Below, one piece after another: positions 42,497 through 52,503 of a stretch of 64,000 nucleotides of DNA. Under the pieces are notes generated by a model. That model saw only the letters and a program-made list of their open reading frames with translations, was not told where the DNA came from and did no database searches. Source of the DNA: a virus; IMG/VR virus record IMGVR_UViG_3300045116_000451, positions 31,654-95,653 of that record; one strand, 5' to 3'. The position numbers were made by a program, and so were the translations under genes. The first letter of the stretch is position 1, and each line of letters opens with the position of its first letter.

Positions 42497-42538
42497 CGAT
42501 CGTTTCCTTCCTGCATGTCGGTTGAATCGCTTCGGCTA

Positions 42539-42973
42539 TCACGGCTCCTGGCGTGACGCGGATCTTGCCCTGCCGCGACGGGCTTTCGGTTTGGGCTCGA
42601 ACCCGGTCGGATCGAGCACGGTCACTTGGACGTTCACTCCGGCCCGGCCCTTCGTTTTGTTGATGAGTGAGGACGTGACCTGCCGGTCGTCCTGCCACAG
42701 CACGCCGTTGCCGGCGTCCATCACGGTCGCGAGCAGCTTGTCGACGTCACCGGCCGTGGACTTGGGGCAAAAAGCCGACACGCTCAGCGCGTACGAGGCG
42801 TCCAGCGGCCAACCGCGCGGACGGGCGCAACGCATCGCGAGCCCTAGGCCGTCACGACACTTCACGTAGTCGCGGTCCATGTACGCGGCGCCGCGCTTGA
42901 GCACGCGCGGTCGTGGCTGCGGGACAAGTCGAATAATCTTCGATTGAAACCCGATCATGATCGGAAATCTCAT
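42539..42973 (-). CDS. rusA: RusA-family Holliday junction resolvase
   Basis: PQPRPR, GDVDKL, MDAGNGVLWQDDRQV. Confidence 0.8.
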   Translation of the reverse strand: MRFPIMIGFQSKIIRLVPQPRPRVLKRGAAYMDRDYVKCRDGLGLAMRCARPRGWPLDASYALSVSAFCPKSTAGDVDKLLATVMDAGNGVLWQDDRQVTSSLINKTKGRAGVNVQVTVLDPTGFEPKPKARRGRARSASRQEP

Positions 42974-43016
42974 CGTTAACGATTCCTTGTGCGGCTTGTT
43001 CAGGCCCGACGTCGCA

Positions 43017-43045
43017 AGTTTACGCATACGAAACGCGACCGTCAA
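43017..43045 (-). promoter_or_regulatory. sigma70-like promoter upstream of rusA, divergent from CRISPR array 1
   Basis: TTGACG-N17-TAAACT. Confidence 0.55.
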
Positions 43046-43269
43046 GCTTTTTTTCACCCGGGCCGTCTCGTCGGAGGACGTCGAGATCCCACATGACGCG
43101 CCGGCGCCCGGGACCTCTCGCAACTCAGAAAACTCTAAACAAAACGCCAGGATAAGTGCTTGCGGGCTCGAGCAATCGCCGTCCCGCAGCTGCGAAAGAG
43201 GCCAGGAAGTAGAAACCGCTCGCAAGAGCTTGCGGAACGCATCGAAACGACGTATGTTCTACGTGACCC

Positions 43270-43940
43270 ATCTAAACCCCATCGCGGCGGGCAACGAGCC
43301 GCGACGGGTGCTGCGGCGCCTTGCGCGGCCGGAAGTCGGCGCATCTAAACCCCATCGCGGCGGGCAACGAGCCGCGACCAGCCCACCGGCGCCGAAGGGG
43401 ATGTCGATCATGGCATCTAAACCCCATCGCGGCGGGCAACGAGCCGCGACGGCGTTGCCCAGATCGGTCAGCGGCCGGACGCCGTCGGATCTAAACCCCA
43501 TCGCGGCGGGCAACGAGCCGCGACTGCGCCGGCGGCGCCGACGGCCCGCCTGGCGTGTACGATCTAAACCCCATCGCGGCGGGCAAGGAACCGCGACGCC
43601 AGCGTCCCTCGGGCCCGAGGCCGGCCATGCCCGATCTCAATCCCATCGCGGCGGGCAAGGAGCCGCGACATCACGCATCGCACGACACCTCGGCCAAGGT
43701 CCGACCGAATCTAAACCCCATCACGGCGGGCAAGAAGCCGCGACAAGAGCAGCAGGGAGTAACTCGTAACTCTATCGCGGCGGGCAAGGAGCCGCGCCCG
43801 AGCACGCCACCGGCTGGGTGCGCGTCGCCATCGGGATCTCAACCCCATCGCGGCGGGCAAGGAGCCGCGACGCGTGGGGCGTCCATATCACCCCGACGCA
43901 TCGCATCTAAACTCCATCGCGGCGAGCAATGAGCCGCGAC
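43270..43940 (+). CRISPR. CRISPR array 1: 10 repeats, 9 spacers
   Basis: 36-bp repeat ATCTAAACCCCATCGCGGCGGGCAACGAGCCGCGAC at 43270, 43343, 43415, 43489, 43562, 43634, 43709, 43763 (degenerate), 43836, 43905; spacers 33-39 bp except one of 18 bp. Confidence 0.97.
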
Positions 43941-43965
43941 CCAGGTGATCGCGCAGCATCGCGAT

Positions 43966-44736
43966 TCATACGGAAACAGCGTCCCAGCCTTCGGGCGCCT
44001 TTGCGCTCGCCCGGTACGACAAGAGCGCGGACGGGATCCAGCCGAGCACCTTGCGACCACGACGACCCGGCTTCGGCGAAAGATCCGTGAGCCAAAGCTC
44101 TCCGGTGCGTTCCTCGAACAGGTGCATCTGAAGCTTCACGCATTGCAGCCCGCCGTGGTCCTCGTCAACCTGCCCGGCCTCGACGAACTCGTAGGTGTCC
44201 TCGCCAACCTGGCTCACGGGCATGAGCGCGTGCTCGATCCCGCCGAAGTCCTCGCCCGAGCTGCGGCAGCCGATGACCATGTAGTCGCCTAGGGAAGGGC
44301 GCAGGTTCACAAGCCCCGGCAGACCGGCCACGCGCTGCCAGGCAGCCATCTTCTTCGCGTACTCGATCGCGCGAGTGACCGCGTAGCGGAGCGGTCCCGG
44401 GATCGGGTAGTAGGGCTCGTAGAGGCACACGGCGTCCACGCCACATAGCGCGTGCACGTGCTCGAGAAACAAACCGCAGGTGGAAATGCCTTCTTTCTTC
44501 GCGATGCTGAACGGCCGCTTCAGAAGGTAGCTCGGGATGCCAGGGCCCAGAGCGTCGTGAAACGACTCAAACAACTCGGGCACGCCCGCGCTCAGGTAGC
44601 GGCACCGGATGGCGTGCGCGATCATGATCCGCGCGGCGGCAAACCCGTCCGCCGGCGGCGAGGGCACTTCGACGAGAGGCGTCGTGTGATCGATGCCGAG
44701 CCAGGTCCACGTGTCGGTCGGAGGCGAGAACGTCAT
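43966..44736 (-). CDS. NlpC/P60/CHAP-like amidase (candidate lysin)
   Basis: STCGLF (Cys), PSLGDYMVIG, IEHA (His). Confidence 0.55.
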   Translation of the reverse strand: MTFSPPTDTWTWLGIDHTTPLVEVPSPPADGFAAARIMIAHAIRCRYLSAGVPELFESFHDALGPGIPSYLLKRPFSIAKKEGISTCGLFLEHVHALCGVDAVCLYEPYYPIPGPLRYAVTRAIEYAKKMAAWQRVAGLPGLVNLRPSLGDYMVIGCRSSGEDFGGIEHALMPVSQVGEDTYEFVEAGQVDEDHGGLQCVKLQMHLFEERTGELWLTDLSPKPGRRGRKVLGWIPSALLSYRASAKAPEGWDAVSV

Positions 44737-44744
44737 CGAAGCGC

Positions 44745-45770
44745 CTACGCGGGCATGACGCCCGAGATGACGCGCACGCCCGTGTCGATCGGCGGATTCT
44801 TTGGCGACGGGGCGCCCATGGCCCCGATCCCGAACATGACCGAGAACGCCCAGTCCTCACCGCCCACGCAGTTGCCTTCGGAATCGATGATGAAGCTCCA
44901 GTCCCGCGGCTCGTGCAGCCCCATCGTCAGCTCGTCGTCCAGGTTGTACTTGTAGCACTCGACCGCGAACTCGTTGCCGAGGCACTTCAGGAACTTCGGC
45001 AAGAACGTCGCCGTCAGGCAGTTGAACGAGTCGGCCGGGTTGTCCGGGAACGTGATGCCAGGGAAGTTCGGATCGAAGACGCCCTGCTGGTAGTCCATCG
45101 TTTGCACGGCATCGGTCGACGTCGCTCCCGGGTACCGAGGCGATCGAGTCGTGACGCCGGAGTCCGTCGGGATGGCGACCGAGTCCGTGAACAGGCCCCC
45201 GTAGAAGGGGGCTCGGAGGCGCGTCGTGTGCGATGGCGAGAAGAACACGGGCGCTGGCCGAGCATACGTCACCGCCTCGGCGCTTGCCGGGATGACCGTG
45301 CGGCTTCCGCTGACGAGCAGCGACGGCCGGCCCGGGACCATGCCGACGCGAGAGTCCGCCGCTCCCAGGCTCGCCTTGCCGATCCCGAACGGAGCCCGCG
45401 CGTGCGTTCGGCGCGTGTAGTCGGCCGCGCTTCGCTCGCGCCAAATGACGCGCCAGACGTACACCCACTGCGCCGTTTCATCGAGCGTCACGCGCTTGGG
45501 AACGAGCGGGAAGAGCACGAGCATGGTCGAGCCGATCGGGACGGGCACGAACTTCGCGAGAAGGGGCGAGATACCCTCGGGCGGGCTCGCTCGGCGCGCT
45601 TCGGGGTCCAAGGCCGTCTCGTAGTCGGGCTGTCCCACGGGCGGGATGGTCTTCGCCTGCGGGTACGTGAACAGGATTGGCACGGATCCGGACTGCCCAT
45701 GGTAGTCGCCTTCGAACCGCCACGGGGGCCTCAGAACCTTCTCGAGCTGGGTGTCGGCGTCGTAGGACAT
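44745..45770 (-). CDS. putative virion protein
   Basis: ATG 45770 after the upstream stop; Pro- and aromatic-rich. Confidence 0.6.
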   Translation of the reverse strand: MSYDADTQLEKVLRPPWRFEGDYHGQSGSVPILFTYPQAKTIPPVGQPDYETALDPEARRASPPEGISPLLAKFVPVPIGSTMLVLFPLVPKRVTLDETAQWVYVWRVIWRERSAADYTRRTHARAPFGIGKASLGAADSRVGMVPGRPSLLVSGSRTVIPASAEAVTYARPAPVFFSPSHTTRLRAPFYGGLFTDSVAIPTDSGVTTRSPRYPGATSTDAVQTMDYQQGVFDPNFPGITFPDNPADSFNCLTATFLPKFLKCLGNEFAVECYKYNLDDELTMGLHEPRDWSFIIDSEGNCVGGEDWAFSVMFGIGAMGAPSPKNPPIDTGVRVISGVMPA

Positions 45771-45775
45771 GTCGT

Positions 45776-46843
45776 TCACCGGTCCGTGAGGAGCAGCTGC
45801 AGCTTGACCATCTGCGGGTCGTCCGTGGCGTTCGAGAGCGTGAGCACGGGCCGCTCTATTGGCAGCACGCCCGAAGGCAGCGAGACGGAAGCGGCCGGGA
45901 TTGAGAGCAGGTTCGAAACGGCCACCACGGGAACGATCAGGGGCTCGTTCGAGTAGTCGTCCCAATCCCAGGTGATGATGCCGCCGCCCACCGTCCCGCC
46001 CGTCACGCGAGGCAGCCACGTCCCACCGAAGAGGCGCGCCACGGCTGGCGGCGCGCCCGGCGGGTCCGTCGGCGGGAGCAAGAACGCCATGATCTCGGAG
46101 CGCCACAAGCGCCATGTCGGGCGCGCTGCGGTCTGCCGCACGGGAAACGGGTTCGCGGCGATCTGCGAGAAGAGCCACGAGCCGGTGTAGGCCCCCTCGT
46201 CGTCCCACATGACGAACGCGGGCACGGTGCACGCCGGGTGCACGTGCGTTATGCTCGCCTGCGGGTACGTCGAAACGGCGAGCTTGGCGACGAGCGAGAC
46301 GTTGATGACGGCGTCGTTCGGCGTCAGGTCCGGCACGAACCCAGGCCTGACGTAGACCTCCCAGAACGCCGGTGCCCCGGCCAGCTCGAGCACCGCCTCG
46401 TCCGTGTCCAGGTCCCCGCCCCATTGCTTCGCGGCCGCAAAGCCAGCTCCCCAGAGCCAGGCTGCGGCCTCGGTGTCCTGCGACATGAGGTTGGCCGGGC
46501 TCGGCGCGTTGAAAAGCGAACGCTTGCGCACGACGATCTCGACCGAGTCGTCGTACTGCGCCTTCACGCCCGTGCCGGGGCTGTAGAGCACCTCGGCGAA
46601 CAGCTTCAAACTGGTCGCCTGCGGCAGCGTCGTCGACGCGAACCCCTTGCTGCCAACAACGCCCGGCACGGGGGACGCGTACTCCCAGACGGCCGGCTTG
46701 TGCTGTCCGGCCACGATCATGGCGACGTCCGAGGGCTTGCCCATCCCGAAGGTCACGGTCGAACGAAACGTGCCCTGGCCGTAGTCGCGCCCCGTCGGCC
46801 TGGCCACGGCGCCGTTCGGGGGATAGCGCGTGTTGTAGTTCAT
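45776..46843 (-). CDS. putative virion protein
   Basis: 355 aa beta-rich; GAGGAG RBS. Confidence 0.65.
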   Translation of the reverse strand: MNYNTRYPPNGAVARPTGRDYGQGTFRSTVTFGMGKPSDVAMIVAGQHKPAVWEYASPVPGVVGSKGFASTTLPQATSLKLFAEVLYSPGTGVKAQYDDSVEIVVRKRSLFNAPSPANLMSQDTEAAAWLWGAGFAAAKQWGGDLDTDEAVLELAGAPAFWEVYVRPGFVPDLTPNDAVINVSLVAKLAVSTYPQASITHVHPACTVPAFVMWDDEGAYTGSWLFSQIAANPFPVRQTAARPTWRLWRSEIMAFLLPPTDPPGAPPAVARLFGGTWLPRVTGGTVGGGIITWDWDDYSNEPLIVPVVAVSNLLSIPAASVSLPSGVLPIERPVLTLSNATDDPQMVKLQLLLTDR

Positions 46844-46855
46844 GCTCCTCGCATC

Positions 46856-48037
46856 CTACGAGCCCGACCCTTCGGGCACAAGGGGCGCCTCGGGCTCACC
46901 GCCGTCGAGCTTCTTCTGATTTCGCTCTGCGATCATTTCGCGCAGCTGCACCAGCTCCGAACCAATCGCTAGCTGATGTTTTTTCGCGACATCCACGACG
47001 TCAAGCACGAGGCAGTCGCGCTTGCCGGACTGGGGATTAGGCCGCAAGCCTCGTCCGATCTCCTGCATGTAGAGCACCTTGGATTCGGTTGGGCGAGCCA
47101 TCACGATCGCGTCGAGCGAGGGGTCGTCGTAGCCGTGCGTGAGGATCTGGCAGTTGGTCAAAACGGGGAAGCGGCCCGTGCGGTGCGCCTTCAAGATGAG
47201 CCTGCGGTGGCGCTCTCGCATGGCCCCGTACACGGCGTACGCCTCGATGGACCTACGACGGTACGCGTTGGCAAGATCGACGGCATGCTCGACGCCGGCG
47301 CAAAATGCCAAGATGCGGCGACCCCGAAGGTTCATGATGCTCGCGTCCACGATAACGTTGTTGCGCTCCGGCGTGTTCACGGTCTTCTCGAGCAGCTTCG
47401 CGGAAAAATCGCGCTCGCCCGTGTGCTCGTTCTTGCTCGTTCGCACGGCGTCCACGTGCACGTTCGTGTCGACCCGGACGAACTTGACCGGGCACAGCCA
47501 CCCGTCGTCGATGGCGTGCTGCAGCGGGTAGTAGTACGCGACCGAGTCCCAGCCCGCGCCGGCCAGGCTCTTCTTGTCTCCGCGGAAGGGCGTCGCGGTG
47601 ACGCCTAGGTGCCATGAGTCCGCGAAGTACCAGAGCACCCGCTGGTAGCTCGGGGAGTTCGCGTAGTGGCACTCGTCCGTGATGACGACCATGAAGTGGT
47701 TCGGCATCAGGTTCGTGAGCCGGGACGGCTTCGAAATGGTCTGGATGGAGGCGACCACGACGTCACGGCTCCACTCGTCGCGGTGAGCTTTGATGACCCC
47801 GCACTGCACGCCCACGCGATTGAGCTTGTCGACCGTTTGCTCGACCAGTTCGTCGGTGTTCACGAGCACGAGGCACCGCATTCCGTTTGCTTTCGCCATG
47901 TAGATGATGAAGACGAACAGCCAGGTCTTGCCCGTGCCGGTCGGCATGGACACGATCGTGCGCTTGTGGTTCGCTTTCCACTCGTCGCGCACGGACTCGA
48001 TGGCGGCCGATTGGTAGGGGCGCAGGTCGATGCTCAT
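46856..48037 (-). CDS. SF2 DEAD/DEAH (ResIII-like) helicase
   Basis: LRPYQ, MPTGTGKT, DECH, TATP, QEIGRGLR. Confidence 0.93.
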   Translation of the reverse strand: MSIDLRPYQSAAIESVRDEWKANHKRTIVSMPTGTGKTWLFVFIIYMAKANGMRCLVLVNTDELVEQTVDKLNRVGVQCGVIKAHRDEWSRDVVVASIQTISKPSRLTNLMPNHFMVVITDECHYANSPSYQRVLWYFADSWHLGVTATPFRGDKKSLAGAGWDSVAYYYPLQHAIDDGWLCPVKFVRVDTNVHVDAVRTSKNEHTGERDFSAKLLEKTVNTPERNNVIVDASIMNLRGRRILAFCAGVEHAVDLANAYRRRSIEAYAVYGAMRERHRRLILKAHRTGRFPVLTNCQILTHGYDDPSLDAIVMARPTESKVLYMQEIGRGLRPNPQSGKRDCLVLDVVDVAKKHQLAIGSELVQLREMIAERNQKKLDGGEPEAPLVPEGSGS

Positions 48038-48492
48038 ACGCGCCCCTGTTTTTGGCCGCGTCGATCGGACGCATTCTGCTTTATCTCGCGGAGGGCACGA
48101 GATCGTTTCGGGGTTCCAACGCAAGCTGACCTACCGTTTAGTATGTGAAACCACGTAACGAGCCACATGCAAACGAAGTCAGATTTGTAACTGAGCTTGG
48201 CCACGGCGCGTGGCACCAGATGAGAGTCGCGTCGCCAGGAACAACGTTTGCCAGTTTTGAAGTTCACGTCCAGGATTTCAAGGGTAGCGCCTCCAACCCC
48301 GACTTTTCCGTCGTCCATCGAAAGAGCGTCGGCTTTGTCGAGCAACCGATTGAAGAGCTTCGCCGGGATGAGAAAGCCCCCTCCCTTGGACGCCAGGGGT
48401 GGCCTGACCTCGTGCTCGATGTGCACCATCCCGTCCATGTCGAGCCAGACGTACATGCCCTCCGGGTTGCTCCAACATCGAATGTAGCTCAA
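48034..48492 (-). CDS. hypothetical protein
   Basis: Probable TTG start overlapping the upstream stop; SYIRCWSN N-terminus. Confidence 0.45.
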   Translation of the reverse strand: MSYIRCWSNPEGMYVWLDMDGMVHIEHEVRPPLASKGGGFLIPAKLFNRLLDKADALSMDDGKVGVGGATLEILDVNFKTGKRCSWRRDSHLVPRAVAKLSYKSDFVCMWLVTWFHILNGRSACVGTPKRSRALREIKQNASDRRGQKQGRV

Positions 48493-49181
48493 GGGCTCGG
48501 CTCCGTTCCGGTCTGCATGAGGTTCACGAAGGTCGCAAGCGTGGGGGCGGCCGTGTACCGGACGCCGAACGTCTTGCCCGCTGTCGTGACGTGGCCGATC
48601 TTCACGAGGTGCCCCAGCATGCGCTTGAGCGCGCGATGCTTGCCCGGGTGCCCGTCGCATCCGAGCGCCGTGGACAGGTCGCGCACGCTCGCGCCTCCCT
48701 GGGTCTCGGTCAGGGCGCGCACGATCGCGATCTGTTCGGCCGCGGTGAGCCCCTGCAGCACGGAGACTGGCATGGCCGGCCTCGGGCCCGAGGGACGCCG
48801 ACGCAGAAGCTCGGCACGCCAGCGGGACTTGCGGATCCCAACCGCCTTGCCGCACGCCTCGTAATAGCTCGGATGCCGATCCGCGACGAGGCGCAGGACC
48901 TCGATCGCGATGCGGTAGGCGCGGTCGATCTCGTCGCACTGCTCGTCGATGGCCTGGTCACGGGAGATGACGAGGTCGCGACGGAGCCGCTCGATGTCGA
49001 CCGGCAGCTCCTCGGGCGCGTAGTCCCGGTAGCTGCCGCTGAGCAGTCGCTTCGCGGTCGCGAAGTCCGAGGTGAGCTTTGCCTTGCGTGCACGTATCGC
49101 GGCATCGCGCCCCTCGGTCAAACACGAAAGAAGGGTTTCGAACGGCGTTTGTTGCAGGGGCGTGTCGCTCGGGGGTGCCAT
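48489..49181 (-). CDS. putative DNA-binding protein with C-terminal winged HTH; contains the protospacer-like site
   Basis: ASVRDLSTALG...LKRMLGHLVKIGHV...GVRY. Confidence 0.65.
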   Translation of the reverse strand: MAPPSDTPLQQTPFETLLSCLTEGRDAAIRARKAKLTSDFATAKRLLSGSYRDYAPEELPVDIERLRRDLVISRDQAIDEQCDEIDRAYRIAIEVLRLVADRHPSYYEACGKAVGIRKSRWRAELLRRRPSGPRPAMPVSVLQGLTAAEQIAIVRALTETQGGASVRDLSTALGCDGHPGKHRALKRMLGHLVKIGHVTTAGKTFGVRYTAAPTLATFVNLMQTGTEPSP

Positions 49182-49191
49182 GATTTCGCGA

Positions 49192-49221
49192 ACCGTATCA
49201 GTCACAAGGGGGCGATGTCAA
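49192..49221 (-). promoter_or_regulatory. putative promoter of the wHTH gene
   Basis: TTGACA-N18-TACGGT with TGn extension. Confidence 0.4.
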
Positions 49222-49254
49222 GCCCCGGCGGTTGTTTTGCGTCGAGGACCGGAT

Positions 49255-49435
49255 GTCGCGGTTTCTTGCCCGCCGCGATGGGGTTGAGATCGGCACGGCA
49301 GCGGGTACCGGGTGTGGAGTGGACGCAGTCGCAGCTTCGTGCCCACTGCGATGGGGTTGAGAGGCTGGGCGCTCGGTGGCGCCCCCGTCCGCATCACACG
49401 TCGCAGCTTCTTGCCAGGCGCGATGGGAAACGAAC
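49255..49435 (-). CRISPR. CRISPR array segment 3: 3 degenerate repeats, 2 spacers
   Basis: Repeats at 49255-49290, 49328-49363, 49400-49435; spacers 37 and 36 bp. Confidence 0.8.
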
Positions 49436-49447
49436 CGACGTCCGTGT

Positions 49448-49690
49448 TCATTTGAGGACGTAGCGTTTCAGTTCGCATTTTGCCAGTGTTGAATACTTTG
49501 GAAACGTGCTCTCAACACCGAACTTCGGGTTCGAGGTGAGAGAATAAATGCGACCACAAGAGGGGCATCTTACTACCACGTCGTGGCTGCACCACCGTAC
49601 AGCGATTCGCTCTCCACAATCACACAGCCTGTCTTCTTCGTCCATGCACACTAGACGTTGAATCTCGGCAATTGATGCCAAAGGTTTCAT
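49448..49690 (-). CDS. 80-aa Cys-rich (Zn-ribbon) ORF between CRISPR repeats
   Basis: AGGAG RBS, ATG 49690, CDC...CPSC; lower GC than flanks. Confidence 0.6.
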   Translation of the reverse strand: MKPLASIAEIQRLVCMDEEDRLCDCGERIAVRWCSHDVVVRCPSCGRIYSLTSNPKFGVESTFPKYSTLAKCELKRYVLK

Positions 49691-49707
49691 GACTACTCCT
49701 ACTGTTG

Positions 49708-50110
49708 GTCGCGGCTCCTTGCCCGCCGCGATGGGGTTGTGAGCCCGTACGGGCCGGCTCGGAGCGTCCGAGGTCGGCCCCGGTCGCGGCTTCTTCCCCG
49801 CCGCGATGGGGTTGCGAGATCTCGGGCAGGCTGCCGTGCTCGTGCGAGCCATCGACGTCGCGGCTTCTTCCCCGCCGCGATGGGGTTGCAAGCCGGAGGC
49901 GGCGGATCGGGTGGCCTCCGGCCGACGCGGGTCGCGGCTTCTTCCCCGCCGCGATGGGGTTGCAAGGATCTGCCTCCTGTTCAGGGCACGGGGAGAGATC
50001 CAGGTCGCGGCTTCTTCCCCGCCGCGATGGGGTTGCAAGGCCCAGCGGAGGACCGCCACCGCCATCTCGACCACGTCGCGGCTTCTTCCCCGCCGCGATG
50101 GGGTTGCAAG
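49708..50110 (-). CRISPR. CRISPR array 2: 6 repeats, 5 spacers, 12 bp downstream of the cas12 stop
   Basis: Repeat CTTGCAACCCCATCGCGGCGGGGAAGAAGCCGCGAC (minus strand) at 50075, 50004, 49931, 49857, 49783, 49708; spacers 35-39 bp. Confidence 0.97.
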
Positions 50111-50122
50111 GGGTCTCGCAGA

Positions 50123-52036
50123 TCATGAGGCTTTCCGCCACTTCCGGCGCGGCGTTGCGAGCGCTTCCTGTTCCTGCTGCCTTTCGAGTCGCCTTCGCGC
50201 CGCGCGCTTGAACCGCGACTCTCCCTTCCGCACGTCTTCGCTCGCTTTCTTGCGCTTGCGAGTGGTCCCTGGCTCCGGCGCGCCGCTGAGGTGCTCGCGC
50301 ACCAAGTTGCGGGCGGCGTTCTCGTCTTGGTCCCACGTCTCCCCACACACCGTGCACGTGTGCACGAGCACGTTCGCAGCGTCGAACGCCTGCTCCGCGC
50401 CGCACGCATGGCAGTTCTGCGTGGTGCCCGCGACCGGCCGAAGCGAGACAGCACCGGTGCGTTTGAACGCGTTCATCACCTTGATCCTGAAGTCCCCCGT
50501 CGCGACGAGCTGCCGGTTCGATCGGGCGACCTCGTTCTCGGCCTCGGGGGCCTCGGGCGGCTGCCGTCGCGCGAACTCGCGCAGGTCCATCGCGGGCACA
50601 TCAGTGCCGTCGTCGTCCTCGAGCACGACCGTCTCGTAGGCGCGCGACAGCTCGGCCGCAACCTGCTCGAAGAGCTTGTCGCGCTGGTGCAGCGCGCGCC
50701 GTCGCTGAGAGGCTTCCCGGCGCCAGATCCACCGGTCCGCGTACCACCAGTTCTCGGCCGCTGCGAACGCCTGCTCGTCGCCGGGCCAACGCCGCTCGCG
50801 CCAGACGCGCCCGACAAATGCAGAGAGGCGCCCCGGCGAGCGCCACTTCGGCAGCGTCTCGATCGCCTCGGCGAACCATGGCGGCACCTCGAGCCCTTCG
50901 AGGCGCCCGAGCAGCGCTGCCCGCGCCTCGTTGAACGTCTGGTCTCGGTCAGCCTTGAATCGCTCCGCGCGTCGCAGGCAGGCCACGAGGAGCGCGGGCA
51001 CGCGCACTTCCCCATGGCGCCCGTCTTGCCCGTACCAGTAGCCAATCCGCACGTCGTGCGGGTAGCCGTCCACAGGCTCGGCGGCCTCGAGCTGCCGCCA
51101 GCCGATGTCCACGCCGACGCACAGGCCCGAGCCCTGCGCCCGAGGCGGGCGCTTCACGTCGGTCGTGTCCACGGTCAGAAGCAGCCGCCAGACGTCGCGG
51201 GGGCCGACCCTGTCGCACTTGACCGCAGCCCACTTGATCACGCCAGCCGGAGGCAGCTCGCGGTGCAGCAGCGCGGGCCAGGCTCCAAAGATCGGCTTGC
51301 GGTCCTGGGTCTGCACGCACATGCGAAGCGTGGACCGCGCCAGGGACCTGCGACCGCGCCCCGGCGCCTGCGCTGCATTGGTGCGCACGTAGGCTCGCTC
51401 GTCGGGACGCGCTAGCATCACGCGCGTGTTGGGCTGGAATACCTTGGAAACGGGTAGGCCGTTCTGGAGCTGTACGGCGATCTTCCCGCCACCCGTCCAC
51501 TCGTGGACGCGCGCTGGGTCGCGGGGAGCAGCCCCTTCGTAGAGCGGCGTCTTTCGTGCCGCATCGTCCGCCTGCTCGACCAGCAGGTAGGTGCCCCAGT
51601 ACACGCCGCACTCCGCGCGCAGTTCGAGCCGGATCCCGTGCGCGCGCTCGTTGACGGCTGCGAGTTCTGCGGCCATCGCCTCCTCAGCGCGCTTGGTCGC
51701 CGTTCGGAACTCGGTTAGCGCAACGCGTTCGGCTGCCCGAGCGCTCGTCACGGCGTCGGTGAGCGCCTGGTCGGGATTGCGCTCGCCCGTTTCGATGCGC
51801 GCCGCCTTGAGCGCCTCCAGGGCGCTGCAAACCACCTCGCCCGCAGCGGTGGCCGATGCGAGCGCAGCAGCGAACGGTTCGTGTTTGGCGAGCACGGCGC
51901 GGTACATCTCGCGGCGGCCACGCTCCAGGCGCGCCAACTCGCGTCTGTACTGGTGCGCGACCCGCATCTGGTCCAGAACGAGATCGGAATGCTCGAATGG
52001 CCTACCGAGGCCGTACTGGTACACGCATGTGCTCAT
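50123..52036 (-). CDS. cas12m: Compact type V CRISPR effector, Cas12m (V-M, formerly V-U1/C2c4)-like, 637 aa
   Basis: RuvC-I VGVDIGWR, RuvC-II VVLE, CHAC...CTVC Zn finger, RuvC-III DQDENAA; family motifs YWGTY, IAVQLQ, HRELP, WRSP; N-terminal coiled coil; GGAGG RBS; adjacent array. Confidence 0.85.
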   Translation of the reverse strand: MSTCVYQYGLGRPFEHSDLVLDQMRVAHQYRRELARLERGRREMYRAVLAKHEPFAAALASATAAGEVVCSALEALKAARIETGERNPDQALTDAVTSARAAERVALTEFRTATKRAEEAMAAELAAVNERAHGIRLELRAECGVYWGTYLLVEQADDAARKTPLYEGAAPRDPARVHEWTGGGKIAVQLQNGLPVSKVFQPNTRVMLARPDERAYVRTNAAQAPGRGRRSLARSTLRMCVQTQDRKPIFGAWPALLHRELPPAGVIKWAAVKCDRVGPRDVWRLLLTVDTTDVKRPPRAQGSGLCVGVDIGWRQLEAAEPVDGYPHDVRIGYWYGQDGRHGEVRVPALLVACLRRAERFKADRDQTFNEARAALLGRLEGLEVPPWFAEAIETLPKWRSPGRLSAFVGRVWRERRWPGDEQAFAAAENWWYADRWIWRREASQRRRALHQRDKLFEQVAAELSRAYETVVLEDDDGTDVPAMDLREFARRQPPEAPEAENEVARSNRQLVATGDFRIKVMNAFKRTGAVSLRPVAGTTQNCHACGAEQAFDAANVLVHTCTVCGETWDQDENAARNLVREHLSGAPEPGTTRKRKKASEDVRKGESRFKRAARRRLERQQEQEALATPRRKWRKAS

Positions 52037-52278
52037 AGCTACCTCCATTCGAATTTCGACTTGCCGTCTGGCTCACGTCTTCTCCCTGCGCGGGCACTCC
52101 ATCGTCGCCGCCTCGCCCCGCACCTCGCCGTCGATGCGGCGCCACTCGACCCGGGCCGAGCACCGGCGGCACACGCCCCAGACGCCGGCGGAGTCGCACC
52201 AGGTCAGCATGACGTGCCCGTGTCGGGCGCAGGCGTCGAGCGCGGCCTTGGCGGGGACGGGAAGGTCGTGGGCGGGTC

Positions 52279-52503
52279 TCATTGCCCGTCCGTCTTCCCG
52301 TTCTTCAGCCACTCGACGAACGCAGCCTCGCAGTCGTGGCAGAGGTCGTAGGTGGCAGTGCCGACCGGCTCCGCGCAATTGCCGCGTCTAGGCCACCAAC
52401 TGTGGGTGATCTTGCCCCCACGCGAGTCTAACGCGCTGGACGAGCCATGCGACGCGCCTTCTGCTCCACACCTGTCGCACACCAATACACTACGCAAGCT
52501 CAT
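52279..52503 (-). CDS. small Zn-finger protein
   Basis: CDRCG...YDLCHDCEAAF. Confidence 0.65.
   Translation of the reverse strand: MSLRSVLVCDRCGAEGASHGSSSALDSRGGKITHSWWPRRGNCAEPVGTATYDLCHDCEAAFVEWLKNGKTDGQ

What the first reader, a model, noticed from the sequence alone, without database searches (positions are those of the whole stretch)
43598..43633. Array 1 spacer 5 matches this genome's own wHTH gene (48767-48802) at 33/36 nt
Seen: spacer GCCAGCGTCCCTCGGGCCCGAGGCCGGCCATGCCCG versus minus strand GTCGGCGTCCCTCGGGCCCGAGGCCGGCCATGCCAG, with a 30-nt perfect core. Mismatches are at positions 2, 4 and 35. Two are synonymous (CGC/CGT, CCC/CCA) and one changes Gln to Arg. The 5' flank is TGC from a Leu codon CTG; the synonymous CTT would give TTC, a TTN PAM as reported for Cas12m. 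Inference: either the spacer came from a close relative and this virus is protected by seed and PAM differences (kin warfare), or a non-cutting Cas12m tunes the regulator gene lying just downstream of its own arrays.
Basis: partly seen in the sequence, partly recalled or inferred. Interest (0 to 1): 0.9.

Follow-up and report, generated by a model that had tools for sequence, protein, structure and literature searches.

The report
Near-self spacer in viral Cas12m array
A lake-water virus that carries its own non-cutting CRISPR system (Cas12m) keeps one spacer that almost matches one of its own genes. It is most likely a weapon or relic aimed at a close relative's copy of that gene, and the two mismatches at the critical end should spare the virus itself.

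Summary
Spacer 5 of array 1 (43598-43633, +) matches the minus strand at 48767-48802 at 33/36, with a 30-nt perfect core (blastn E 2e-12). The other 16 spacers reach only 23-26 of 35-39 on the 95.6-kb genome. The effector (50123-52048, -) is a Cas12m (PDB 23vw, E 4.5e-60) with a D-E-D RuvC triad. No cas1, cas2 or cas4 is in the record.

The target is a real 238-aa gene. Its predicted C-terminal domain is a winged helix, and the protospacer lies in its disordered, unconserved linker. The mismatches are at guide positions 2, 4 and 35, and the 5' flank is TGC. Published Cas12m orthologues need TTN or YTN and tolerate no mismatch in the first 11-12 nt, so self-binding is unlikely.

At both synonymous sites the spacer keeps the common codon and the genome has a rare one. 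This points to change on the gene side, not spacer decay.

No relative carrying the spacer allele was found in any collection, so the choice between "kin-derived" and "self-acquired, then escaped" stays open. Autoregulation is disfavoured. Virus-borne Cas12m and anti-kin viral spacers are both already described, so this is a new member of a known kind.

The parts
43598..43633 (+). Spacer 5 of array 1 (36 nt), the near-self spacer
   Evidence: it lies between two repeats and matches 48767-48802(-) at 33/36.
43270..43940 (+). CRISPR array 1. It has 10 repeats of 36 nt. Repeats 1-4 are identical. Repeats 5-10 carry 2-7 differences, and one spacer is only 18 nt, so this is the older, decaying half.
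   Evidence: The repeat ends in a 7-bp hairpin plus C. Its orientation matches array 2 and the Rctr197k array downstream of its cas12m-like gene.
43562..43597 (+). Repeat 5, which would supply the 5' handle of crRNA 5. It has 2 differences, one at the base of the hairpin.
   Evidence: the hairpin folds at -8.5 against -13.3 kcal/mol for the consensus; the repeat-5 plus spacer-5 transcript does not keep the repeat hairpin in its minimum-energy fold.
48767..48802 (-). Near-cognate protospacer on the sense (non-template) strand of the target gene, covering codons 135-147. It holds a 14-nt perfect palindrome at 48780-48793.
48803..48805 (-). PAM position (-3 to -1) of the protospacer. It reads TGC on the minus strand.
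   Evidence: It is one synonymous change (CTG to CTT) away from TTC.
48489..49205 (-). Target gene, 238 aa (230 aa from the ATG at 49181). It has an N-terminal long-helix domain, a disordered linker and a C-terminal winged-helix domain.
   Evidence: GC3 is 0.85. No Pfam or PHROG match. HMMER finds 31 clusters at 50% identity, the best at 41% identity. The AlphaFold2 model has pLDDT 82 with residues 133-141 below 50. Foldseek top hits are all ArsR/SmtB/MarR winged-helix repressors, with E 8e-3 and TM 0.56-0.62 normalised to the target.
50123..52048 (-). cas12m, 641-aa ORF (the database form is 637 aa). RuvC D314/E477/D575. Zinc finger CxxC at 546 and 565.
   Evidence: PDB 23vw Cas12m E 4.5e-60, 8hhl/8hio Cas12m2 about 5e-26, 8pm4 1e-13. 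PF07282; motif positions.
49708..50110 (-). Array 2a: 6 repeats, starting 12 nt after the cas12m stop. The terminal repeat shares 32 identical nt with repeat 9 of array 1.
49255..49435 (-). Array 2b: 3 degenerate repeats, ending 49 nt upstream of the target gene's first start codon.
49448..49690 (-). 80-aa zinc-ribbon ORF lying between arrays 2a and 2b.
   Evidence: weak Zn_ribbon_9 match, E 9e-4.
46856..48124 (-). SF2 helicase gene downstream of the target gene on the same strand. It would be affected by a transcription roadblock.
   Evidence: ResIII 1.4e-34, Helicase_C 3.7e-14.

Best explanation
Spacer 5 is a genuine, rather old spacer of a virus-borne type V-M (Cas12m) CRISPR array. It was taken from the homologous gene of a very close relative of this virus, and it serves or once served inter-virus competition.

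Proposed mechanism:
- Array 1 is transcribed on the + strand.
- Cas12m cuts out a crRNA made of a 36-nt repeat handle followed by the spacer.
- On a relative that carries the matching allele and a T-rich PAM, the crRNA pairs with the template strand inside the regulator-like gene.
- The bound, non-cutting Cas12m then blocks transcription of that gene and of the helicase operon behind it.

The resident genome is spared for two reasons. Its copy gives C:A and A:C mismatches at guide positions 2 and 4. Its flank is TGC instead of TTN or YTN.

Shown here: the match, the reading frame, the Cas12m identity, the array orientation and the linker position.

Inferred: the PAM, loss of binding on the self site, silencing of a relative, and the existence of that relative.
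For: 1. The match is far beyond chance and unique among 17 spacers.
2. The three differences look like allelic variation of a coding sequence. Two are synonymous third-position changes. The third is Arg/Gln in a linker that is disordered (pLDDT below 50) and unconserved across the family. The source was therefore at least about 90% identical in sequence, not a distant homologue.
3. At both synonymous sites the spacer has the common codon (CGC 43%, CCC 31%) and the genome a rare one (CGT 9.6%, CCA 9.4%). This points to change on the gene side, or to another allele, rather than decay of the spacer.
4. Two of the three mismatches fall in the first 4 nt (P = 0.034 if placed at random, post hoc).
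5. Published orthologues behave in a way that would spare the self site. Cas12m2 forms a 17-bp heteroduplex and needs TTN (PMC10442227). In PmCas12m, single mismatches within 12 nt of the PAM abolish activity and the PAM is YTN (bioRxiv 10.64898/2026.03.26.714355). MmCas12m is reported intolerant of mismatches in the first 11 nt (bioRxiv 10.64898/2026.10.26.761838).
6. The effector is a Cas12m with no adaptation genes in the record.
7. Cas12m orthologues with D-E-D, H-D-D and N-D-D triads all bind but do not cut (PMC11013384).
8. Viral arrays whose spacers target related viruses are an established phenomenon (PMC6858448, PMC11656645).
Against: - No relative with the spacer allele was found anywhere. 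The closest family member in 1.84 billion representatives is 41% identical.
- The exact 30-nt core is absent from IMG/VR and from the JGI metagenome contigs.
- Contigs of two lake runs that cover the site carry the resident allele only.
- None of the other spacers matches this genome even at peptide level. If a relative was the source, it left only one spacer.
- The PAM of this orthologue is unknown. The residue that reads dT(-2) in Cas12m2 (Asn156) aligns to Leu here.
- Spacer 5 lies in the degenerate half of the array, behind a weakened repeat. It may no longer be used.
Confidence: 0.45

Rival explanations
1. Autoimmunity relic. The spacer was captured from this virus's own replicating genome, the most abundant DNA in the infected cell. 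Cas12m then silenced the virus's own operon. The conflict was resolved by point mutations in the protospacer seed, and perhaps the PAM, of the resident gene. The spacer is now inert baggage in a decaying part of the array.
For: - It gives the same present-day picture as the best explanation.
- The rare codons on the genome side fit recent derived mutations in the target.
- The seed bias of the mismatches fits escape.
- Spacer 5 lies in the old half of array 1, where repeats carry 2-7 changes and one spacer is truncated to 18 nt.
- No relative was found in any collection.
- From my own knowledge, not checked here: self-targeting spacers in bacteria are usually read as accidents associated with degraded arrays (Stern et al. 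2010).
Against: - The mismatch at position 35 lies outside the 17-bp heteroduplex and gives no escape benefit, so neutral divergence is also needed.
- The record has no adaptation genes, and no host array with this repeat was found. How any spacer is acquired is therefore unknown.
Confidence: 0.35
2. Autoregulation. crRNA 5 guides Cas12m to bind weakly to the template strand inside the virus's own regulator-like gene. This tunes the gene and the downstream helicase operon. The mismatches set the strength of the effect.
For: - Cas12m is a natural transcription blocker (PMC11013384, PMC10442227).
- The crRNA would pair with the template strand.
- The target gene lies directly downstream of cas12m and array 2.
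- Regulatory cr-like RNAs with partial complementarity are widespread (bioRxiv 10.1101/2023.03.03.530964).
- The PAM of this orthologue is not known.
Against: - Known regulatory guides keep PAM-proximal pairing and lose the distal part. Here it is the reverse: mismatches at positions 2 and 4, and a perfect match at 5-34.
- Two characterised orthologues lose all activity with such mismatches.
- The flank TGC is neither TTN nor YTN.
- The site is in mid-ORF (codons 135-147), not at a promoter.
- A non-cutting effector does not need mismatches to avoid damage.
- The one other deposited virus with a Cas12m-like locus shows no near-self spacer among the 13 spacers that were extracted and tested.
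Confidence: 0.08
3. RNA-level effect without Cas12m. The minus-strand operon runs head-on into array 1. Read-through would give an antisense copy of spacer 5, which can pair over 30 perfect bp with the 5' part of the same or another transcript of the target gene. That would create a double-stranded RNA substrate.
For: The geometry allows it. The operon ends at 43966 and array 1 ends at 43940 on the opposite strand. No terminator-like site was predicted between them on the minus strand.
Against: This is pure inference. There is no expression data. The element is an ordinary spacer of ordinary length between ordinary repeats, which needs no such explanation.
Confidence: 0.03
4. Chance similarity, or an assembly artefact.
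For: None beyond the GC-rich, low-complexity character of the genome.
Against: - E is 2e-12, against a background maximum of 26/37.
- Independent Logan contigs from other runs cover the target site and part of array 1 without differences.
Confidence: 0.01

Closest known systems
Type V-M CRISPR-Cas (MmCas12m2, GoCas12m, PmCas12m; PDB 8hhl, 8pm4, 23vw)
   Same: - Full-length homology of the effector.
- Size of about 600-640 aa.
- TNB zinc finger.
- 36-nt repeats ending in a hairpin next to the spacer.
- No adaptation genes.
- Carried by a mobile element.
   Different: - It is encoded by a virus record rather than a plasmid or chromosome.
- It has two inverted arrays with two repeat variants.
- Only 26-35% identity to any other database protein.
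- The PAM and the lack of cleavage are untested.
- One PAM-reading residue of Cas12m2 (Asn156) is replaced.
MvCas12m of myxophage MV-1 (bioRxiv 10.64898/2026.09.14.751636)
   Same: A virus-encoded Cas12m with an intact D-E-D triad, an adjacent array and no cas1, cas2 or cas4.
   Different: The authors of that work found no protospacer for any of its eight spacers. Here one spacer has an identifiable near-cognate site.
Virus Rctr197k (GenBank KX853510.1), gene Rctr197k_108 plus two annotated CRISPR regions
   Same: - A Cas12m-like protein: 32% identity over 90% of the query.
- It is followed directly by an array of 36-nt repeats that end in a hairpin plus AC.
   Different: - It is a tailed phage of 197 kb.
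- The gene is annotated only as 'similar to transposase'.
- None of the 13 spacers extracted and tested from its main array shows a near-self match.
Virus-borne mini-CRISPR arrays of Saccharolobus portogloboviruses SPV1 and SPV2 (PMC6858448)
   Same: A viral array whose spacer matches the homologous region of a close relative while the carrier itself is spared. The proposed role is superinfection exclusion.
   Different: Those arrays have one or two spacers, use the host's effector and carry host-identical repeats. Here the virus brings its own effector and long arrays. No host array with this repeat was found, and the targeted relative is hypothetical.
Regulatory cr-like RNAs (tracr-L, CreA/CreTA, CreR; bioRxiv 10.1101/2023.03.03.530964)
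   Same: Partial complementarity between a spacer and a gene of the same genome.
   Different: Those elements keep seed pairing next to a valid PAM, target promoters and sit in stand-alone degenerate repeats. Spacer 5 has seed mismatches and a mid-ORF target, and it sits in a regular array.

Membership tests
Type V-M CRISPR-Cas (Cas12m) | The effector is homologous over its full length to characterised Cas12m proteins. | tested here: met
   23vw E 4.5e-60 (residues 10-584), 8hhl/8hio about 5e-26, 8pm4 1e-13. TnpB matches only at the C-terminal TNB domain.
Type V-M CRISPR-Cas (Cas12m) | RuvC motifs plus a TNB zinc finger. The triad may be D-E-D, H-D-D or N-D-D. | tested here: met
   D314, E477, D575 and CxxC at 546 and 565. 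PF07282. D-E-D is one of the three natural configurations listed in PMC11013384.
Type V-M CRISPR-Cas (Cas12m) | An adjacent CRISPR array whose repeat carries a 3' hairpin and gives a single crRNA (no tracrRNA). | tested here: inconclusive
   The array starts 12 nt after the stop codon, and the 7-bp hairpin is predicted. The orientation matches Rctr197k. Absence of a tracrRNA was not tested, and no RNA data were available.
Type V-M CRISPR-Cas (Cas12m) | No adaptation module. | tested here: met
   No Cas1, Cas2 or Cas4 in the 95.6-kb record. The record is estimated to be 66% complete, so this is not final.
Type V-M CRISPR-Cas (Cas12m) | PAM-dependent DNA binding without cleavage. | not testable with these tools
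   This needs a biochemical or PAM-SCANR assay.
Virus-borne arrays used in inter-virus conflict | The array is carried on a viral genome. | tested here: inconclusive
   G000 is an IMG/VR virus record with RecT/YqaJ, RusA-like and SLT genes. No capsid or terminase family was recognised. The tailless-virus reading comes from first-reader notes only.
Virus-borne arrays used in inter-virus conflict | The spacer matches a related virus. | tested here: inconclusive
   A near-match to the virus's own gene implies a close relative or an ancestor as source. No such relative was found.
Virus-borne arrays used in inter-virus conflict | The carrier's own copy escapes targeting. | tested here: inconclusive
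   Seed mismatches at positions 2 and 4 and the flank TGC. Escape is inferred from other orthologues, not measured.
Regulatory cr-like RNA (CreA, CreR, tracr-L type) | Complementarity is retained next to a valid PAM and lost distally. | tested here: not met
   Mismatches at positions 2 and 4, a perfect match at 5-34, and the flank TGC.
Regulatory cr-like RNA (CreA, CreR, tracr-L type) | The target lies in the promoter or 5' region of the regulated gene. | tested here: not met
   The target is codons 135-147 of a 238-codon ORF.
Winged-helix DNA-binding proteins (target gene product) | A helix-turn-helix followed by a beta-hairpin wing. | tested here: met
   The model shows H155-167, H174-181, H187-203, E206-209 and E216-219 with pLDDT about 90. 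All top Foldseek hits are ArsR, SmtB, HlyU or MarR repressors, but E is only 8e-3. There is no Pfam match, so this is fold-level only.

The most novel reading that the evidence does not exclude
Cas12m of this virus is wired into the virus's own gene control. Three elements could together form an RNA-guided regulatory or addiction circuit rather than a pure anti-competitor weapon:
- crRNA 5, binding weakly or conditionally to the virus's own winged-helix gene.
- A solitary degenerate repeat sitting directly on the 5' UTR of an AbiEii-like nucleotidyltransferase gene (L001:15573-15608).
- A possibly invertible 5.8-kb segment between the two inverted arrays.
Probability: 0.07. Interest if true: 0.8.

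Novelty: new member of a known kind. Interest (0 to 1): 0.42.

Why it matters
Virus-encoded Cas12m was claimed as a first only in a September 2026 preprint, and none of that virus's spacers could be assigned a target. Here one spacer of a second, unrelated-looking virus-borne V-M system has an identifiable near-cognate site. This gives three things:
- A concrete, testable pair of substrates: the resident site, and the site corrected at four bases.
- A predicted PAM (TTC).
- A natural case for asking how a binding-only effector tells self from near-self.

If a relative with the spacer allele turns up, this would be direct evidence that Cas12m is used for virus-against-virus silencing. Otherwise it is an ordinary trace of CRISPR autoimmunity on a virus genome.

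Tried and rejected
**Searches for a relative carrying the spacer allele**
- The exact 30-nt core is absent from IMG/VR and from JGI metagenome contigs.
- The target protein was searched against:
  - IMG/VR by back-translated patterns;
  - one genome per GTDB species;
  - 5.8 billion protein clusters, at near lengths (self only) and at shorter lengths (nothing);
  - GenBank phages and PLSDB plasmids by tblastn (nothing).
- The full HMMER scan found 31 clusters, the nearest at 41% identity. That is too distant to carry the allele.

**Read-level check**
- Contigs of four lake runs were laid on 42500-52500.
- Runs X3 and X4 have depth over the protospacer and no differences are listed there; a listed X3 contig spans it.
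- X5 does not cover it, and X6 is unclear.
- Contigs hide rare variants, so this does not exclude the allele.

**Searches for the repeat, meant to find a host array or related viral arrays**
- No hit in IMG/VR, in genome contigs or in metagenome contigs.

**Searches for targets of other spacers, meant to derive the PAM**
- The first 22 nt of three leader-proximal spacers were searched in IMG/VR (nothing).
- Both arrays were run by blastn against GenBank phages. Only chance-level hits appeared, with E at least 0.02.
- The PAM therefore could not be inferred from natural targets.

**Other checks that gave nothing**
- Rfam search of the locus.
- The promoter and terminator scan was uninformative.

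The 120-kb contig that also encodes the identical target protein, and the contexts of family members and of Cas12m homologues, could not be examined.

**Idea considered and rejected: the mismatches are decay of the spacer itself**
- The old repeats around spacer 5 carry about 2 private changes per 36 nt, so the rate would fit.
- However, the spacer has the common codons and the gene the rare ones at both synonymous sites. This favours change on the gene side.

**Idea considered and rejected: RNA targeting**
- The crRNA has the same sense as the mRNA, so it cannot pair with it.

Full report
**Observation**

Array 1 lies on the + strand at 43270-43940 and has ten 36-nt repeats. Spacer 5 (43598-43633) aligns without gaps to the reverse complement of 48767-48802 at 33/36. 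Positions 5-34 are identical, and the mismatches are at positions 2, 4 and 35.

Against the whole 95,653-bp record, the 30-nt core scores E 2e-12. Every other spacer of both arrays reaches only 23-26 of 35-39 positions (13 of 18 for the short spacer 7), which is the background of this 66% G+C genome. A six-frame peptide comparison with shuffled controls also singles out spacer 5 alone.

**The system**

- The 641-aa ORF at 50123-52048 (-) is a Cas12m. It aligns over residues 10-584 with PDB 23vw ('CRISPR-associated DNA-binding protein Cas12m', E 4.5e-60). It also aligns with Cas12m2 (8hhl/8hio, about 5e-26) and with 8pm4 (1e-13), which from its length and the NAR paper I take to be the GoCas12m complex. 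TnpB matches only the C-terminal zinc-finger domain.
- The RuvC triad is D314/E477/D575. Bigelyte et al. (PMC11013384) report that Cas12m orthologues with D-E-D, H-D-D or N-D-D triads all bind DNA in a PAM-dependent way without cutting it.
- Array 2a starts 12 nt after the stop codon on the same strand (50110 down to 49708). An 80-aa zinc-ribbon ORF follows, then three degenerate repeats (array 2b, down to 49255), and then the target gene.
- In the sense of cas12m, the repeat ends in a 7-bp hairpin plus C.
- The array downstream of the Cas12m-like gene of GenBank virus Rctr197k has the same layout. This fixes the crRNA as a repeat handle followed by the spacer, so array 1 is read on the + strand.
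- No Cas1, Cas2 or Cas4 is encoded in the record. The record is an IMG/VR virus contig estimated to be 66% complete.
- The virus, or near-identical sequence, occurs in lake-water metagenomes of several studies from 2018 to 2025.

**The target**

The gene at 48489-49205 (-) is real.
- GC3 is 0.85.
- An exhaustive HMMER scan finds 31 clusters of relatives, the best at 41% identity.
- The AlphaFold2 model has a mean pLDDT of 82.
- It has no Pfam or PHROG family.

The model shows two long N-terminal helices, a disordered stretch, and a C-terminal three-helix and two-strand domain. The best structural matches of that domain are all winged-helix repressors (ArsR, SmtB, HlyU, MarR), with Foldseek E 8e-3 and TM 0.56-0.62 normalised to the target. 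'wHTH' is therefore supported at fold level only.

The protospacer covers codons 135-147. This is the disordered linker (residues 133-141 have pLDDT below 50) and the least conserved part of the family alignment. A 33/36 match there cannot come from a distant homologue. The source was this lineage or a very close relative.

**Geometry**

The crRNA has the sense of the mRNA. It therefore cannot act on the RNA, and it would pair with the template strand. The PAM position on the non-target strand reads TGC. The synonymous change CTG to CTT at Leu134 would give TTC.

About 30% of random flanks in this genome are one change away from TTN, so this alone is not evidence.

**Would Cas12m bind the resident site?**

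There is no direct test. Published data from other orthologues argue against binding:
- Cas12m2 needs 5'-TTN and uses a 17-bp heteroduplex (PMC10442227).
- PmCas12m needs YTN, and single mismatches within 12 nt of the PAM abolish activity (bioRxiv 10.64898/2026.03.26.714355).
- MmCas12m is described as highly intolerant of mismatches in the first 11 nt (bioRxiv 10.64898/2026.10.26.761838, citing Wu et al. 2022, which I could not read).

Here guide positions 2 and 4 give rC:dA and rA:dC mismatches, which are not wobble pairs.

There is a caveat. Cas12m PAMs vary and include both T-rich and C-rich motifs (PMC11013384). In the HMMER alignment, only Trp152, Gln195 and Gln197 of the five PAM-reading residues of Cas12m2 are identical here. 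Asn156, which reads dT(-2), aligns to Leu, and Tyr141 aligns to His. The PAM of this orthologue is therefore open.

**Which side changed?**

The old half of array 1 is decaying. Repeats 5-10 carry 2-7 differences and one spacer is only 18 nt. Three changes in the spacer itself would therefore not be surprising.

The codon evidence points the other way. At both synonymous sites the spacer has the common codon (CGC 43% of Arg codons, CCC 31% of Pro codons), and the gene has a rare one (CGT 9.6%, CCA 9.4%). This favours the spacer preserving an ancestral or foreign allele, with the resident gene being the divergent one.

Two of the three mismatches lie in the first four positions (P = 0.034, post hoc). 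This is expected if only spacers that are harmless to the carrier are kept, or if the carrier escaped.

**Search for the source**

None was found. In two lake runs that cover the site, the contigs carry the resident allele. No array with this repeat exists in the three large DNA collections.

This virus lineage is almost unsampled, however, so absence carries little weight.

**Verdict**

The match is real and biologically meaningful. It is a spacer derived from the linker of this gene in a near-identical genome. My estimates are:

| Reading | Probability |
|---|---|
| Spacer against a close relative; the carrier is spared by seed, and probably PAM, differences | 0.45 |
| Self-acquired spacer neutralised by escape mutations; now a relic | 0.35 |
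| Autoregulation | 0.08 |
| Antisense or double-stranded RNA effect | 0.03 |
| Chance or artefact | 0.01 |
| None of these | remainder |

The first two readings differ only in history and cannot be separated with present data.

Autoregulation is disfavoured for these reasons:
- The complementarity pattern is the reverse of known regulatory cr-like RNAs (bioRxiv 10.1101/2023.03.03.530964).
- The site is in mid-ORF.
- A binding-only effector has no need for mismatches.
- Rctr197k shows no near-self match among the 13 of its spacers that were extracted and tested.

**Novelty**

- V-M systems are known to be enriched on plasmids and present in some prophages (PMC11656645).
- A Cas12m in a myxophage was reported in September 2026, with no spacer targets found (bioRxiv 10.64898/2026.09.14.751636).
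- GenBank virus Rctr197k has carried an unrecognised Cas12m-like locus since 2016.
- Viral arrays that target close relatives are established (PMC6858448).

This is a new member of a known kind. Its added value is a concrete near-cognate protospacer for a virus-borne Cas12m.

Noticed in passing
L001:15573-15608 (genome 15573-15608, + strand; 16 kb before the window start): A solitary degenerate copy of the CRISPR repeat (24/29 identical to the repeat core) sits in the 78-nt gap directly upstream of the RBS and ATG of a 184-aa AbiEii-like nucleotidyltransferase gene (PF08843, E 1e-6). The 'pseudo-spacer' is that gene's 5' UTR. Its best partial match elsewhere is 13/17, one of four hits at that score and so chance level. 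That match lies in the leader of array 1 (43177-43193, minus strand) next to a TTC flank. This could be a CreTA/CreR-like link between Cas12m and a toxin-like gene, or a relic.
   Followed up: partly
window 43840-43871 and 49708-49739: Repeat 9 of array 1 and the terminal repeat of array 2a share 32 identical nt in inverted orientation. Contigs of two lake runs (X3, X4) join 43872 to 49708 on opposite strands. Either the 5.8-kb segment between the arrays, which includes the target gene, inverts by recombination, or this is a k=31 assembly artefact.
   Followed up: partly
window 43942: In three runs (X4, X5, X6), contigs leave the window sequence right after the last repeat of array 1. They continue with about 21 nt followed by what looks like another repeat start (CAACCCCAT). 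Other strains therefore seem to have a longer or different trailer end of array 1.
   Followed up: no
window 48780-48793 and 43607-43620: The protospacer core holds a perfect 14-nt palindrome, CCTCGGGCCCGAGG, which contains ApaI-like and AvaI-like sites. It occurs only at these two places in the window (0.09 expected). It could be an operator, a restriction-type site that favoured spacer capture, or chance.
   Followed up: partly
window 49448-49690 (-): An 80-aa zinc-ribbon ORF with its own start lies between arrays 2a and 2b, that is, inside the CRISPR transcription unit.
   Followed up: no
L003:8959-12375 (KX853510.1 110803-114219): GenBank Virus Rctr197k (2016, anaerobic methane-oxidising enrichment) encodes a Cas12m-like protein annotated 'similar to transposase'. 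A 1.5-kb CRISPR array follows it, and there is a second small array next to a 'transposase-like protein'. This predates the 2026 claim of the first phage Cas12m.
   Followed up: partly
window 48300-48620: A contig of a 2018 lake run (X6) differs at 3 of 321 positions (48466, 48479, 48549), at the 3' end of the target gene and just downstream of it. Strains about 1% divergent therefore exist, although none was seen with the spacer allele.
   Followed up: no
window 14976-36188: No terminase, portal or HK97-type capsid family was recognised among the large proteins tested. This fits the first readers' idea of a tailless virus, which I did not test.
   Followed up: no
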